Shown here piece after piece: positions 19,408-23,000 of a stretch of 28,834 nt of DNA; position 1 is the stretch's first letter; every line of letters starts with the position of its first letter. The notes under the pieces are model-generated. The model was not told the DNA's origin. It did no database searches and saw only the letters and a list, made by a program, of their open reading frames with translations. The DNA is from Acidimicrobiia bacterium. GTDB lineage: Bacteria > Actinomycetota > Acidimicrobiia > IMCC26256 > BP-133. The position numbers were made by a program, and so were the translations under genes. Location: the NCBI GenBank assembly GCA_025923175.1, contig JAICGL010000001.1, forward strand, positions 1-28,834. Direction: 5' to 3'.

Positions 19408-19613
19408 CTCTCAGTCCTCGATCAGGGGAGGGTCTTGGAGGGCGTCTTGGTCGCCGCCAAGGCGTCGAGCTTCGCCGACAGGTCGACGATCGAACGCTTG
19501 AGCTCGGCGACGTCGTCGCGCAGGTCGTCGTCATCGTCGTCGTCGCGGATGCGGTCGATGCTGTCGTCGACGAGGTCCTTGGTCTCGTCGAGGACGGTCT
19601 GCCACCAGTCGAG
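19285..19613. repeat. Tandem gene duplication: two 90-nt copies (19285-19374, 19524-19613)
   Basis: Manual alignment gives 85/90 identical nt; flanking codons are much more diverged. Confidence 0.9.
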
Positions 19614-19643
19614 AATGTTCTTGCGCTTGTTCCTGCGGGCCAT
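19422..19643 (-). CDS. Small acidic coiled-coil protein, paralog B (73 aa)
   Basis: GGGGAG RBS before ATG 19643; MARRNKRKNILDWWQTVLDETKDLVDDSIDRIRDDDDDDDLRDDVAELKRSIVDLSAKLDAL. Confidence 0.85.
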   Translation of the reverse strand: MARRNKRKNILDWWQTVLDETKDLVDDSIDRIRDDDDDDDLRDDVAELKRSIVDLSAKLDALAATKTPSKTLP

Positions 19644-19669
19644 CCGGGCTCCCCTCGAGATGTACGCTT

Positions 19670-20678: not shown

Positions 20679-21824
20679 ATGGACTTCAGCTGGCGAGAAG
20701 AAGACGAGCTGTTGCGGGACACCGTCCGGCGCTACGCCACTGAACGGCTGGCGCCCGACTACGCCCGCTGGGAGACCGAGCCGTTTCCCCGCGAGCGCGT
20801 GGTGGAACTCGGCCACCTCGGCGTACTCGGCATGCTGATCCCGCCGGAGTACGGCGGTTCCGGTGGCCGGTATGTCTCGTTCGGCGTGGCAGCCGAAGAG
20901 ATCAGCCGGGCCGACTTCAACGTGATGTCGTTCCTCCAGTTGGCGGGCATCACCTCGGGGCTCTTGGCGCTCGGCTCCGACGACGTCAAGAAAGAGTGGC
21001 TGCCCGGCGTGGCGTCCGGCGATGCGGTGGTGGCCTTCGCCCTCACGGAGCCGGGTGTCGGCTCCGACGCTGCCAAGCTCGTGACGACTGCCCGGCGTGA
21101 CAACGGCGACCTGATCCTGTCGGGGGAGAAGGCGTCATGCACGTTCGCCGGTCTGGCCGACGCCTGCGTTGTCTTCGCCCGCACGGGCGGCCCGGGGGCG
21201 GCGGGCATCAGCATGGTGCTCGTGCCGCTCGACCGGCCCGGCGTCACCCGGCAGGTCTACGACAGCGTCGGCGGGAAGCTCGCCCAGCGGGGATCGCTGT
21301 TCTTCGACGACGTCCGGGTCCCGGCCGCCAATCAGCTCGGCGCCGAGGGAGCCGGCTTCGTCGGCGCCATGAAGGGCTTCGACTTCAACCGGTCGATCAT
21401 CGCCCTCGGCTGTGTCGGCACGGCGCTGCAGTCCCTCGACGAGACGATCGCCTACGCCCGGGAACGCACCACGTTCGGCAAGCCGCTCGCCAAGCACGAA
21501 GGCGTCGCGTTCCCGATCGCCGAACACCTCGCCCTGCTCCACGCCACCCGGCTGGTGGCCTACGAGGCCCTGGCCCGCGCCGACGCCGGCCTGCCCCACA
21601 CCACGGAAGCGGCCATGGCCAAGTGGCTGGCGCCCAAGCAAGCCGCCGAGGCGATCCACTCCTGCCTGCTGTTCCACGGCTGGTCCGGTTACGGCAACGA
21701 TCTGCCCTTCGCCCAGCGCCATCGCGACATCATCGGCTTCGAGATCGGCGACGGCACCGCGGAAATCATGAAGGCGATCATCGCCCGCGAAGCCTTCGGC
21801 CGCGAGTACGCCGCCTACAAGTAG
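20679..21824 (+). CDS. Acyl-CoA dehydrogenase, cyclohexanecarboxyl-CoA dehydrogenase (AliB)-like
   Basis: MDFSWREEDELLRDTVRRYA, AFALTEPGVGSDA, LSGEKAS, RTTFGKPLA, AAMAKW, HGWSGY, EIGDGTAEIMKAIIAR. Confidence 0.9.
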   Translation: MDFSWREEDELLRDTVRRYATERLAPDYARWETEPFPRERVVELGHLGVLGMLIPPEYGGSGGRYVSFGVAAEEISRADFNVMSFLQLAGITSGLLALGSDDVKKEWLPGVASGDAVVAFALTEPGVGSDAAKLVTTARRDNGDLILSGEKASCTFAGLADACVVFARTGGPGAAGISMVLVPLDRPGVTRQVYDSVGGKLAQRGSLFFDDVRVPAANQLGAEGAGFVGAMKGFDFNRSIIALGCVGTALQSLDETIAYARERTTFGKPLAKHEGVAFPIAEHLALLHATRLVAYEALARADAGLPHTTEAAMAKWLAPKQAAEAIHSCLLFHGWSGYGNDLPFAQRHRDIIGFEIGDGTAEIMKAIIAREAFGREYAAYK

Positions 21825-21839
21825 CGCTCCGTCCAGAAG

Positions 21840-22137
21840 ACCGACGCGATCGCCGGAGACGCGAGGAAGCCCCGAGTAACCTTCGCTGTTTCCAGCTCCG
21901 TGCTCCTCGGGGCTCCTCGTTTCGGGCTCACCTTCGCCCCGGTCTGGCCATGCCCCTTGCGAGGCCGGCTCCGGTGGTGACCCGACCCGTCCGAAAACGA
22001 GCCTGGCACCGCGGCGCTGGCACTGCCCCCGGCGACCATTCCCGAAGGTCTGGCATCCGGTGACCTGGCTCCACTCAGTCGATCGGTGCTTCTCTCCGAG
22101 GAGATTGGTACCTTTCGGATCCGTGTCGTTCCAGGTC
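21840..22137 (-). ncRNA. Candidate ~300-nt structured non-coding RNA of unrecognised family
   Basis: Consensus-like promoter directly upstream, and the first helix begins at the predicted TSS. GAAA, GCAA and UUCG tetraloop hairpins, a 14-bp helix and long-range closing helices. No credible ORF; convergent with the upstream CDS. Ends are approximate. Confidence 0.62.
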
Positions 22138-22143
22138 TGCGAC

Positions 22144-22172
22144 AATATAACGGCGCAGCCACAGTCGGTCAA
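22144..22172 (-). promoter_or_regulatory. Near-consensus sigma70/sigmaA promoter
   Basis: Minus strand TTGACC (22172-22167), 17-nt spacer, TATATT (22149-22144). Confidence 0.8.
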
Positions 22173-22287
22173 TAGGATCTTTGAGAAAATCCCGGAAAGT
22201 TCCTAAACCCTTGTCCTGTAAGGGAACTTCCCCGGTGACTGCTCTTTTATTGAGACTCAATGCGCGTCCTTTAGCGCCCTTACTGCC

Positions 22288-22385
22288 TGTGGAAACATAG
22301 GGGTATAACCCTGTGTATGACGGGCATGGTTATCCACAAAGAGCAGGTCGCTGAGGGGTCAGGCGTTCGCAGCGCCTGTGGACAG
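22288..22385. promoter_or_regulatory. DnaA-box cluster
   Basis: Perfect TTATCCACA 22330-22338. Degenerate reverse boxes TGTGGAAAC 22288-22296, TGTGTATGA 22312-22320 and TGTGGACAG 22377-22385. The adjacent 22141-22320 is about 48% GC by hand count. Confidence 0.55.
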
Positions 22386-23000
22386 CCCGACGGTGAGGAC
22401 CAGCGGGACCATCCGGCGGAAGCGCCACTCGACCTGGTGCTGGGCGATCACCTCGAAGCCGGCGGAAGTGGCGAGCCGGCGCATGACCGCCGCCGTGGGG
22501 AACGTGACCTTCGTCTTCGAGGCGCCCGACGACAGGCGAGAGAAGCGGTCGCTTCCGATCGCCGTCCGGGGATGGATCATGCCGACCAGGGCGTGGCCGC
22601 CGGGGGTGAGGACCCGGTGGAACTCGGCCCAGGCCTGCGGTTGATCGAAGAAGTGGAAGGCCTGGGTGCAGACGACGGCGTCGAACGAGCCGCGCCGGAA
22701 GGGCAGCCGGGCGGAATCTCCGCGTACCCAGCCGACCCGCCGCGAGCGGGTGGCCGCCTCGGCCAACATCCCCGCCGACAGGTCGCAGCCGGCCGTCCCG
22801 CCGGGCGCCAGTTCCCGGTCGATCCGGTCGGCGAAGATGCCGGTGCCGCAGCCCACGTCGAGGACGGAGCCGGGGCGCCAGGCTCGCAGTTCGGTCAGCG
22901 CCCGGTCCTGCACCGCCGTGTACAACGCCTGCTGGACCCAGCTGGTGTCGTAGAGGTGGGCGACCCGGTCGAAGATGCGGTGCACGTCGACGTCAGGCAT
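22359..23000 (-). CDS. Class I SAM-dependent methyltransferase (UbiE/Methyltransf_11-like)
   Basis: FDRVAHLYD, VLDVGCGTG, CDLSAGML, GDSARLPF...FDAV, HRVLTPGG. ATG 23000. Confidence 0.9.
   Translation of the reverse strand: MPDVDVHRIFDRVAHLYDTSWVQQALYTAVQDRALTELRAWRPGSVLDVGCGTGIFADRIDRELAPGGTAGCDLSAGMLAEAATRSRRVGWVRGDSARLPFRRGSFDAVVCTQAFHFFDQPQAWAEFHRVLTPGGHALVGMIHPRTAIGSDRFSRLSSGASKTKVTFPTAAVMRRLATSAGFEVIAQHQVEWRFRRMVPLVLTVGLSTGAANA

What the first reader, a model, noticed from the sequence alone, without database searches (positions are those of the whole stretch)
21840..22172. Unrecognised ~300-nt highly structured ncRNA with its own consensus promoter
Seen: in the ~530-bp gap between two convergent CDSs the minus strand has TTGACC-N17-TATATT, and helix P1 (GACCUGG 22137-22131 / CCAGGUC 22068-22062) starts 6 nt after the -10 box, at the expected TSS. 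By-eye folding gives three parts. Domain 1, closed by P1, holds CC-GAAA-GG and UCUC-CUCG-GAGA hairpins. Domain 2 is CCGG..CCA-GA-CC-UUCG-GG-AA-UGG..CCGG (22060-22029). Domain 3 is closed by long-range helices (21991-21983 with 21852-21843; CCGGAG 21974-21969 with CUCCGG 21858-21853). It contains GCCUC-GCAA-GGGGC, a GGGC/GCCC hairpin with loop GAAGGUGA, and a 14-bp helix (21919-21906 / 21876-21862) capped by GA-GCUG-GAAA-CAGC-GA (tandem G.A). The bulged UCACC (21980-21976) is complementary to the loop GGUGA (21932-21928), a potential pseudoknot. Motifs CAGACC (x3), GGUCACC (x2) and GCGAAGGU (x2) recur. Knowledge: GNRA/UUCG caps and tandem GA pairs mark evolved RNA structure. I see no hallmarks of tmRNA, RNase P, SRP, Ms1, raiA or common riboswitches. 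Inference: an independently transcribed, abundant large ncRNA, possibly a new class.
Basis: partly seen in the sequence, partly recalled or inferred. Interest (0 to 1): 0.9.

Follow-up and report, generated by a model that had tools for sequence, protein, structure and literature searches.

The report
Second copy of abundant Acidimicrobiia RNA
This is a real, highly expressed non-coding RNA gene of about 280 bases with its own promoter: a second, fuller copy of an undescribed RNA family that most soil Acidimicrobiales carry next to the repair helicase gene uvrD2, and whose job is still unknown.

Summary
No Rfam family matches. 6S, Ms1 and raiA models do not hit this RNA, and RNase P and SRP RNAs lie elsewhere in the genome.

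The RNA belongs to a family defined by a near-invariant 3' hairpin (GCCCCGAGRAG...YUACUCGGGGC). An exact-pattern scan found that hairpin in 71 of 109 sampled Acidimicrobiales, almost always once per genome. The usual copy lies just upstream of a uvrD2-like helicase that has its own promoter. This genome has two copies. The uvrD2-linked one lacks the 5' domain. The window copy keeps the 5' domain and has no gene downstream on its strand.

Covariation supports P1, the UUCG hairpin, a junction domain and the long 3' rod. The 115-aa ORF is not conserved.

Metatranscriptome contigs from eight studies cover only the RNA, not its flanking genes. Function is unknown. My best guess is a trans-acting, protein-binding RNA, possibly bound to RNA polymerase.

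This scan has already reported the uvrD2-linked members of the family on other DNA.

The parts
22205..22230 (-). Conserved upstream block GAAGUUCCnUUACAGGrCAAGGGUUU, 35-60 nt upstream of the -35 box. Role unknown; it could be a regulator site or part of the upstream gene's terminator.
   Evidence: Shared by the nine long-form sequences and by three of the four short uvrD2-linked copies of the same genus (L004, L005, L021; not L022). Not followed up.
22167..22172 (-). -35 box TTGACC
   Evidence: Invariant in all nine long-form homologs. TTGAC(C/G)-17-TAnnnT was found in at least 50 family members.
22144..22149 (-). -10 box TATATT (TATGTT in relatives), 17-nt spacer
21857..22138 (-). Predicted transcript of about 280 nt. 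The start at 22138/22137 is inferred from the promoter. The end near 21857 is inferred from where conservation stops.
   Evidence: Conservation in nine homologs ends right after CGCGUCU. RNA-library contigs from eight studies lie within 21896-22164. Neither end has been mapped experimentally.
22062..22137 (-). 5' domain: a long irregular hairpin closed by the 7-bp helix P1, carrying the 5'-proximal motif GGAACGACACGG.
   Evidence: P1 closes the same domain in genera g1, g2 and g3 with different sequences (GACCUGG/CCAGGUC, GUCCCCG/CGGGGGC, GUCCUCG/CGAGGAU). One inner pair changes from U-A to C-G among the long forms. The uvrD2-linked paralog lacks this domain.
22029..22060 (-). Domain 2: hairpin capped by UUCG
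   Evidence: Helices 1-2 of the consensus fold. 98-100% of cells are paired, and three pairs show changes on both sides.
21923..22028 (-). Junction domain. Three short closing helices enclose a UUCG-capped hairpin (GGUGCC/GUCACC plus CUCGUU/GACGGG) and a GCAA-capped hairpin (GCCUC/GGGGC).
   Evidence: Helices 3-10 of the consensus fold. 90-97% of cells are paired, and 11 pairs show changes on both sides.
21862..21919 (-). 3' rod. A 14-bp lower helix with the near-invariant core GCCCCGAG/CUCGGGGC, a purine-rich internal loop (GGA opposite GAA), and an apical stem capped by GAAA.
   Evidence: This core is the pattern the scans searched with, so its invariance in those hits is by design; BLAST-found homologs in 15 or more genomes carry it too. 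The apical stem covaries freely. The lower extension pairs beyond chance: 4.12 pairs against 2.69 +/- 0.13 in mismatched controls over 116 sequences.
21857..21861 (-). Conserved 3' tail, CGUCU of the CGCGUC motif
   Evidence: CGCG(U/C) follows the rod in most family members. Conservation stops here.

Best explanation
The gap holds a stand-alone gene for a stable structured RNA of about 280 nt on the minus strand (about 22138 to about 21857). A near-consensus housekeeping-type promoter drives it.

It belongs to an undescribed RNA family of Acidimicrobiia. The family's hallmarks are that promoter, a 5' hairpin domain, GNRA- and UUCG-capped hairpins around a junction, and a long 3' rod whose base sequence is almost invariant.

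In most lineages the single copy lies just upstream of uvrD2 as a separate transcription unit. In this genus the gene was duplicated. The uvrD2-linked copy lost the 5' domain. The window copy kept the full architecture and sits alone, convergent with an acyl-CoA dehydrogenase gene.

Shown: gene status, family membership, most of the fold, and presence in RNA libraries.

Inferred: it acts in trans as an abundant RNA that binds a protein through the sequence-invariant 3' rod. The partner I consider most likely, at about 1 in 4, is RNA polymerase. That would make it the functional counterpart of 6S, Ms1 or CoRP RNA in a class where no 6S model hit was found and whose order Acidimicrobiales gave no Ms1 hit in five genomes.
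For: Promoter and fold. The promoter is the only such site in the region and is invariant in close homologs. It recurs in at least 50 members. MFE z = -4.27.

Consensus fold on 16 sequences. 95.4% of cells are paired, against 35-51% when partners are slid. 19 pairs change on both sides, against 3-9 in the slid controls. 0 of 500 shuffles reach the observed values.

Distribution.
- BLAST finds homologs in 22 of 41 relatives.
- The hairpin pattern gives 118 or more hits, almost all titled Acidimicrobiia.
- In a class sample, 71 of 109 genomes of the same order and 14 of 292 in other orders carry it. Nearly all have one copy, and the reversed-pattern control gives 0.

Separate unit.
- 78 non-redundant loci have the helicase start within 400 nt downstream (59-285 nt in those listed). 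61 of them carry a TGTC-N12-TAnnnT promoter in between.
- Other members lie convergent to a cation-efflux gene, or elsewhere.
- The window copy has no co-oriented downstream gene.

Expression. Contigs of 151-232 nt from seven RNA libraries, plus shorter pieces from an eighth at depth up to 448, lie inside 21896-22164. There is no comparable coverage of the flanks. 16 RNA runs hold the RNA's words.

Room for a polymerase-binding RNA. 6S is found in 0 of 151 class genomes and Ms1 in 0 of 5. PMC11077062 proposes that each species has one abundant RNAP-associated RNA, which may differ from 6S and Ms1.
Against: - No protein partner has been tested; polymerase binding is pure inference.
- The supported fold is branched. 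It is not the long hairpin with a central bubble that 6S and Ms1 use to bind RNA polymerase (PMC4191392).
- The family was not found upstream of uvrD2 in four relatives that lack the motif. So it is not universal in the order, which is odd for a core housekeeping RNA.
- Contigs cannot show strand, ends or level. One contig (run X15) reaches 22164, 27 nt upstream of the predicted start.
- The invariance of the 3' stem in the wide scans is partly circular, because the scans used that stem as the pattern.
Confidence: 0.6

Rival explanations
1. It is a large structured RNA whose work depends on its own tertiary architecture, as with raiA, OLE, ROOL or GOLLD. It could be a scaffold, an assembly or a catalyst, with no link to RNA polymerase.
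For: Many short helices are capped by GNRA (GCAA, GAAA) and UUCG loops. CCGCAAGG occurs in 40 of 116 non-redundant members. The fold is a branched junction. Members range from 141 to 332 nt with added or lost peripheral domains, as in other large structured RNAs.
Against: No tetraloop receptor or pseudoknot was found; the one proposed pseudoknot fails. The minimal members are only about 145 nt. There is no biochemical evidence.
Confidence: 0.25
2. It is a base-pairing regulatory sRNA that acts on mRNAs through a conserved single-stranded seed, such as the 5'-proximal GGAACGACACGG or the CGCGUC tail.
For: A CGACACGG-like word recurs in 26-42 of 116 members, and in a family of another class. The CGCG(U/C) tail is conserved and has no conserved partner.
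Against: The strongest conservation lies in a stem, not in a loop or linker. About 280 nt of tight structure is unusual for a seed-type sRNA. No targets were searched for.
Confidence: 0.1
3. It is, or derives from, a cis-acting leader, attenuator or transcriptional-interference element for uvrD2, and the window copy is a decaying duplicate.
For: 78 non-redundant loci place the RNA 59-285 nt upstream of uvrD2 on the same strand. The 3' rod resembles a terminator without a U tract.
Against: - uvrD2 has its own conserved promoter between the rod and the start codon in 61 of 78 loci. It keeps that promoter where the RNA is missing.
- The window copy, the cation-efflux-linked members and the members in family f68 have no helicase downstream.
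- The window copy is conserved from promoter to 3' tail at 86-88% identity in two other genomes of the genus and six metagenome contigs. It is also found in RNA libraries.
Confidence: 0.04
4. It is a divergent homolog of Ms1 or 6S RNA.
For: Size, own sigma-A-type promoter, apparent abundance, actinobacterial host, and no other 6S or Ms1 candidate in these genomes.
Against: - The Ms1 model RF02566 gives no match in the genome or four relatives; the best is 12 bits against a cut-off of 162.
- The 6S model matches nothing.
- The fold is not a bubble-containing rod.
- The flanks are not the HAD-IB hydrolase and oxidoreductase genes that flank Ms1.
Confidence: 0.03
5. The stretch encodes the 115-aa protein of ORF 21815..22162.
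For: The frame is open in this genome.
Against: - No Pfam match.
- Seven of eight close homologs have 1-3 stops in that frame.
- Indels are 1-2 nt long.
- Variable columns are spread evenly over the codon positions: 19, 21 and 23 of 102 each.
- The start codon lies inside the promoter spacer.
Confidence: 0.01

Closest known systems
Undescribed uvrD2-adjacent small RNA family of Acidimicrobiia
   Same: Same promoter type, same near-invariant 3' rod and CGCGUC tail, and the same core helices with covariation. The window RNA is 80% identical over about 200 nt to the uvrD2-linked copy in its own genome.
   Different: The window copy is not next to uvrD2. It keeps a 76-nt 5' domain that the uvrD2-linked copy of this genus has lost. 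It is one of two copies, whereas nearly all genomes have one.
Ms1 RNA (Rfam RF02566; MTS2823 in M. tuberculosis, scr3559 in S. coelicolor)
   Same: About 300 nt, actinobacterial, single-gene unit with a sigma-A-like promoter, apparently very abundant, and present in a lineage without 6S (PMC4191392, PMC9130861).
   Different: No covariance-model match. Branched fold instead of a long hairpin with a central bubble. Different neighbouring genes. Acidimicrobiales is not among the 14 orders reported to have Ms1. RNAP-core binding is untested.
6S RNA (Rfam RF00013)
   Same: An abundant, stand-alone structured RNA with a strong housekeeping promoter. Two paralogs in one genome recall 6S-1 and 6S-2 of Bacillus.
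   Different: No model match in 151 class genomes. The 5' and 3' ends fold locally instead of pairing with each other into a closing stem.
CoRP RNA of Corynebacterium glutamicum (PMC11077062)
   Same: An abundant actinobacterial RNA with no similarity to 6S or Ms1, found in a lineage that lacks both. It is a precedent for lineage-specific RNAP-associated RNAs.
   Different: CoRP is about 516 nt, is flanked by tRNA genes and is cleaved into two fragments. I had no CoRP sequence to compare. RNAP binding is shown for CoRP and untested here.
raiA motif RNA (Rfam RF03072)
   Same: A structured RNA of unknown biochemical function that also occurs in Acidimicrobiia (PMC10861870).
   Different: The raiA model does not match this RNA. 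It does match a separate locus in a genome of the same genus, at 139 bits.

Membership tests
uvrD2-adjacent Acidimicrobiia sRNA family (undescribed) | 3' rod with the core GCCCCGAGRAG ... YUACUCGGGGC, followed by CGCG(U/C) | tested here: met
   Window 21912-21870 matches the pattern exactly, as does the second copy on contig C11. The tail CGCGUC follows.
uvrD2-adjacent Acidimicrobiia sRNA family (undescribed) | Own promoter TTGAC(C/G)-17-TAnnnT 140-330 nt upstream of the end of the rod | tested here: met
   TTGACC-17-TATATT at 22172-22144. The same type occurs in at least 50 members.
uvrD2-adjacent Acidimicrobiia sRNA family (undescribed) | Shared core helices that covary with other members | tested here: met
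   54 pairs, 95.4% of cells paired, 19 pairs with changes on both sides, 0 of 500 shuffles as high.
uvrD2-adjacent Acidimicrobiia sRNA family (undescribed) | Position directly upstream of, and co-oriented with, a UvrD2-type helicase gene | tested here: not met
   The window copy is followed by a convergent acyl-CoA dehydrogenase gene. The paralog on contig C11 does meet this feature. Position is typical of the family but is not kept by the cation-efflux-linked members or the family-f68 members either.
Ms1 RNA (RF02566) | Match to the family covariance model (cut-off 162 bits) | tested here: not met
   No match in the genome or in four relatives. The best hit anywhere is 12.2 bits, E = 0.96. 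Nothing at E up to 10 in the region.
Ms1 RNA (RF02566) | [quoted passage not shown] | tested here: not met
   The covariation-supported fold consists of local domains plus a junction. The two ends do not pair with each other.
Ms1 RNA (RF02566) | Flanked by HAD-IB hydrolase/phosphoserine phosphatase and oxidoreductase-type genes (PMC9130861) | tested here: not met
   The flanks are an acyl-CoA dehydrogenase and a SAM methyltransferase. The paralog is flanked by a DUF2505 protein and a UvrD2-type helicase.
Ms1 RNA (RF02566) | Binds the RNA polymerase core | not testable with these tools
   Needs RIP-seq or a pull-down.
6S RNA (RF00013) | Match to the family covariance model | tested here: not met
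   0 of 5 and 0 of 151 genomes match, while the control genomes do.
6S RNA (RF00013) | Rod with a closing stem, a central bubble and a terminal loop; binds the sigma-70/sigma-A holoenzyme and templates product RNAs | tested here: not met
   The shape is not met. Binding and templating cannot be tested here.
raiA motif RNA (RF03072) | Match to the family covariance model | tested here: not met
   No match in G000. In G004 the 139-bit match lies at a different locus from both copies of this RNA.
CoRP RNA | Sequence or structure similarity to C. glutamicum CoRP; association with RNAP core and holoenzyme | not tested
The gene context differs, since CoRP is flanked by tRNA genes.

The most novel reading that the evidence does not exclude
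This family is the abundant RNA-polymerase-associated RNA of Acidimicrobiia. It would be a fourth, structurally unrelated class after 6S, Ms1 and CoRP, binding through a sequence-specific 3' rod rather than an open-promoter mimic. The recurrent placement next to the damage-inducible helicase gene uvrD2 would then point to a link between polymerase handling and DNA repair.
Probability: 0.2. Interest if true: 0.85.

Novelty: new variant of a known kind. Interest (0 to 1): 0.62.

Why it matters
Acidimicrobiia are common in soils and waters but rarely cultured, and their RNA biology is almost unknown.

This appears to be among their most abundant non-ribosomal RNAs. It is assembled on its own in soil, rhizosphere and wetland metatranscriptomes from eight studies, yet it is in no RNA catalogue. 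It therefore goes unannotated in thousands of genomes and is lost or misassigned in metatranscriptomes.

The class shows no 6S hit in 151 genomes, and its order Acidimicrobiales no Ms1 hit in five. The family is thus a concrete candidate for testing the published idea that every bacterium has some abundant polymerase-associated RNA.

The two-copy state in this genus helps with that test. One copy has the 5' domain and one lacks it, so the pair forms a natural deletion series for working out which parts matter.

Tried and rejected
Known RNA families.
- Rfam 15 at gathering thresholds on the whole window gave no match.
- Rfam at E up to 10 on 21500-22500 gave only chance miRNA-like hits on the opposite strand.
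- Rfam at E up to 0.1 on nine homolog loci gave no match.

Divergent housekeeping RNA.
- RNase P RNA and SRP RNA are found elsewhere in the genome.
- 6S is not found anywhere.
- Ms1 is not found.
- raiA is found at another locus in a genome of the same genus.

Ms1 sequence from the literature.
- I looked in the supplement of PMC9130861 for a direct comparison. The hairpin words are not in it.

Kink-turn reading of the purine loop.
- The consensus GCGAAGA / GGAGC resembles Kt-7 (recalled from memory).
- Positions that a kink-turn needs invariant do vary. 2b is G in this genus and in many members, and 1b is A in some.
- Those positions covary as Watson-Crick pairs with the opposite strand: U-A changes to C-G, and C-G to U-A. 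I therefore read the loop as a straight rod with three purine-purine pairs.

- The pseudoknot and the long-range closing helices are rejected on homologs.

Coding potential.
- Rejected.

Wide alignment of the 3' hairpin.
- A 115-sequence MAFFT alignment aligned the apical part poorly, and RNAalifold kept only the base stem. I built no covariance model from it.

Transcript ends and strand.
- All runs offered were assembled contigs, not raw reads. Neither ends nor strand could be read.

RNA upstream of uvrD2 in four relatives that lack the motif.
- None found there.

Tool slips.
- Searches failed on argument errors.

Full report
WHAT IS IN THE SEQUENCE

On the minus strand a SAM-dependent methyltransferase gene ends at 22359. 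On the plus strand an acyl-CoA dehydrogenase gene ends at 21824. The gap holds the only sigma-70-like site in 21500-22600: TTGACC (22172-22167), a 17-nt spacer, and TATATT (22149-22144). Shuffles predict 0.1 such sites.

The 306-nt stretch folds to -154.5 kcal/mol, z = -4.27, and none of 100 shuffles folds as well.

NOT A KNOWN RNA AND NOT A PROTEIN

Rfam 15 gives no match.
- Nothing at gathering thresholds on the window.
- Only chance miRNA-type hits on the other strand at E up to 10.
- Nothing at E up to 0.1 on nine homolog loci.

The other housekeeping RNAs are accounted for or are not found.
- RNase P RNA and SRP RNA are found elsewhere in the genome and in four relatives.
- The raiA model hits a separate locus in a genome of the same genus.
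- The 6S model hits nothing in 5, and then in 151, Acidimicrobiia genomes, while it does find its control genomes.
- The Ms1 model (RF02566, cut-off 162 bits) gives nothing better than 12 bits.

The 115-aa ORF is not a gene.
- It has no Pfam match.
- Seven of eight close homologs have 1-3 stops in that frame.
- Gaps are 1-2 nt long.
- Variable columns are spread evenly over the codon positions: 19, 21 and 23 of 102 each.

THE FAMILY

BLAST with the region finds matches in 22 of 41 relatives, including a second copy in the window's own genome (contig C11, 8576-8773, 80% identical over about 200 nt).

The part shared by all is the 3' hairpin, GCCCCGAGRAG ... YUACUCGGGGC, followed by CGCG(U/C).

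Almost all are titled Acidimicrobiia, Acidimicrobiales or Actinomycetota MAGs. The window therefore comes from an Acidimicrobiales MAG.

In an even sample of the class the pattern occurs in 85 of 401 genomes.
- 71 of 109 are in the window's order and 14 of 292 are in other orders.
- Nearly all have exactly one copy, and the reversed-pattern control gives 0.
- One of the 85 (G293) is an unpublished genome. No claim depends on it.

In a phylum sample the pattern also occurs in 6 of 13 genomes of one family (f68) of another class. There it has the same promoter type and a similar 5' word, CGACGGCACGG. A seventh hit, in family f81, lies inside a gene and is chance.

At least 50 members have TTGAC(C/G)-17-TAnnnT at the right distance, which gives RNAs of 141-332 nt.

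This scan has already reported the uvrD2-linked members on other genomes (e1-5127668, e1-5261532, e1-2245852). My results agree with those notes.

GENE CONTEXT

In 78 non-redundant loci a helicase gene starts 59-285 nt downstream on the same strand. The helicase has UvrD-helicase, UvrD_C and HRDC domains and is 676 aa long, which is the UvrD2 architecture.

In 61 of the 78 loci the spacer carries [TC]GTC-N12-TAnnnT shortly before the start codon. The background rate is 0.05 per kb. This is the geometry of the actinobacterial RecA-independent, PafBC-dependent damage promoter. I recalled that consensus from memory; the papers I opened name the motif but do not print it.

uvrD2 keeps this promoter in relatives that have no RNA gene upstream. 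The RNA and uvrD2 are therefore separate transcription units.

Another subgroup of the family lies convergent to a cation-efflux gene.

TWO COPIES IN THIS GENUS

Within the genus, the long form is seen in G000, G002 and G004. The short form is seen in G000, G001, G003 and G004. These genomes are 61-97% complete.
- The short form lies between a DUF2505 gene and uvrD2. Its promoter sits directly before the UUCG hairpin.
- The long form, which is the window copy, adds a 76-nt 5' domain.

Sister genera g2 and g3 have one uvrD2-linked copy, and that copy does carry a 5' domain. In g2 the domain even has the same word, GGAACGACACGG. The simplest history is a duplication in this genus followed by loss of the 5' domain from the uvrD2-linked copy. 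That leaves the window copy as the full-length one. This history is an inference.

Six metagenome contigs add to the long form. Across the nine long-form sequences the conservation has these limits.
- It starts about 100-130 nt upstream of the -35 box.
- It includes an invariant -35 box.
- It stops abruptly after CGCGUCU, at about window 21857.
- Beyond that point nearly every sequence differs.

STRUCTURE

RNAalifold on 16 family-level sequences gives 54 pairs. Counted on the alignment:
- 95.4% of cells are paired, against 35-51% when the 3' partners are slid by 1-3 columns.
- 19 pairs change on both sides, against 3-9 in the slid controls.
- The covariation score is 0.265, against at most 0.089.
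- 0 of 500 shuffles reach any of these values.

In window coordinates the supported elements are:
- the UUCG hairpin, 22059-22030;
- a junction closed by three short helices (22028-22013 with 21938-21923);
- inside the junction, a UUCG-capped arm (22010-21976) and a GCAA-capped arm (21974-21939);
- the 3' rod, 21919-21862.

The rod's lower extension was not part of the search pattern. It pairs better than mismatched controls over 116 sequences: 4.12 pairs against 2.69 +/- 0.13.

The 5' domain folds as a P1-closed irregular hairpin in three genera. The 7-bp P1 differs in sequence between them but sits at the same place, starting at transcript position 1-2.

Four of its elements fail.
- The two long-range helices use bases beyond the conserved 3' end. 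One of their arms, GACGGG, belongs to a covarying local helix.
- The GGGC/GCCC hairpin is 70.9% paired.
- The UCACC/GGUGA pseudoknot is 68% paired.
- UCACC instead pairs with GGUGCC.

In the uvrD2-type members the rod holds a 3x3 purine loop, GGA opposite GAA. It looks like kink-turn Kt-7. But the positions a kink-turn needs fixed do vary, and they covary as Watson-Crick pairs, so I read it as a straight rod. In the cation-efflux-linked subgroup this loop is replaced by ordinary pairs.

EXPRESSION

Sixteen RNA runs hold the RNA's words. I laid contigs from eight RNA libraries, each from a different study (soil, rhizosphere, wetland).
- Seven libraries each give one contig of 151-232 nt lying wholly within 21896-22164.
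- The eighth, an rRNA-depleted library, gives several pieces of 54-114 nt within 21916-22123 at depths up to 448.
- Within 5 kb around the RNA there are otherwise only stray fragments of 18-38 nt, plus two diverged pieces near 19500-19655.

The contigs stop where the family-wide hairpin begins, as expected if the assembly graph branches there.

Three limits apply. Contigs show presence only, not strand, ends or level. One contig reaches 22164, 27 nt beyond the predicted start. DNA carry-over cannot be formally excluded, although the silent flanks argue against it.

Fourteen DNA metagenomes, from soils, roots and rhizospheres plus two unspecified samples, hold 81% or more of the words.

HOW IT PROBABLY WORKS

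Shown:
- it is a stand-alone gene;
- it has a strong housekeeping-type promoter;
- it has a conserved, branched fold;
- the base of the 3' rod is almost invariant in sequence, although the scans that show this most widely used that sequence as the pattern;
- it is present in RNA libraries in which neighbouring genes are not seen.

Inferred: a trans-acting stable RNA whose rod is read by a protein.

The partner I rank first, at about 1 in 4, is RNA polymerase.
- The class shows no 6S hit in 151 genomes, and five Acidimicrobiales genomes show no Ms1 hit.
- Ms1 was not reported in Acidimicrobiales.
- The RIP-seq study that found CoRP argues that each species has one abundant polymerase-associated RNA, which may look like none of the known ones.

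Three points count against this. The fold is not an open-promoter mimic. The family was not found in about a third of the sampled genomes of the order. Nothing has been tested.

The rivals are:
- a self-structured RNA of the raiA or OLE kind;
- a seed-type regulator using the 5' word or the 3' tail;
- a uvrD2 leader, largely excluded for this copy;
- a divergent Ms1 or 6S, excluded as far as the models can tell;
- a 115-aa protein, excluded.

VERDICT

The RNA is a new family in the general class of abundant stand-alone bacterial structured RNAs. The window adds a second, full-length, uvrD2-independent copy to what this scan had seen before.

Noticed in passing
Relatives, between the RNA 3' hairpin and uvrD2, e.g. 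L021:1499-1580 (- strand) and L022:1587-1665: 61 of 78 non-redundant uvrD2-linked loci carry [TC]GTC-N12-TAnnnT 9-97 nt before the helicase start, against a background of 0.05 per kb. This is the geometry of the actinobacterial RecA-NDp/PafBC damage-inducible promoter (consensus recalled from memory). It suggests that the PafBC regulon extends to Acidimicrobiia uvrD2.
   Followed up: partly
window 22205-22230 (- strand): The block GAAGUUCCnUUACAGGrCAAGGGUUU lies upstream of the promoter. It is conserved in both paralogs of the genus. In the window it sits inside a larger inverted repeat followed by AUUUUCUC, which could be the methyltransferase gene's terminator or a regulator site.
   Followed up: no
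I also saw TATCCAC-like words between the RNA and uvrD2 in relatives (L022, L019). Ms1 genes are reported to lie near the replication origin (PMC4191392). This may be coincidence.
   Followed up: no
G000:C11:8576-8773 (- strand; locus L021): A second, shorter copy of the RNA in the same genome lies between a DUF2505 gene and a UvrD2-type helicase gene. It lacks the 5' domain.
   Followed up: yes
L030, L116, L132 and about 40 similar loci: A subgroup of the family has a fully paired 3' hairpin and an inner hairpin with the loop UCCGACA. It lies convergent to a cation-efflux (CDF) transporter gene rather than upstream of uvrD2.
   Followed up: partly
L154, L155, L156 (family f68 of another class of the phylum): The same 3' hairpin, a TTGACC promoter and a 5' CGACGGCACGG word occur in 6 of 13 sampled genomes of a family outside Acidimicrobiia, with no helicase nearby. 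The RNA family is therefore wider than one class.
   Followed up: partly
G004:C11:104113-104378: A raiA motif RNA scoring 139 bits in a genome of the same genus. None was detected in the window's own genome, which is 90% complete.
   Followed up: no
L068, L031, L086: Contigs titled Burkholderiales, Bifidobacteriaceae and Acidoferrales MAGs carry this RNA followed by the helicase gene. They are probably Acidimicrobiia contigs placed in the wrong bins.
   Followed up: no
L158-L161 (G022, G030, G026, G014): Four relatives without the hairpin pattern have no RNA gene upstream of uvrD2. At least two of them (L158, L159) still keep the TGTC-N12-TAnnnT promoter. The RNA has either been lost or has moved in these lineages.
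   Followed up: partly
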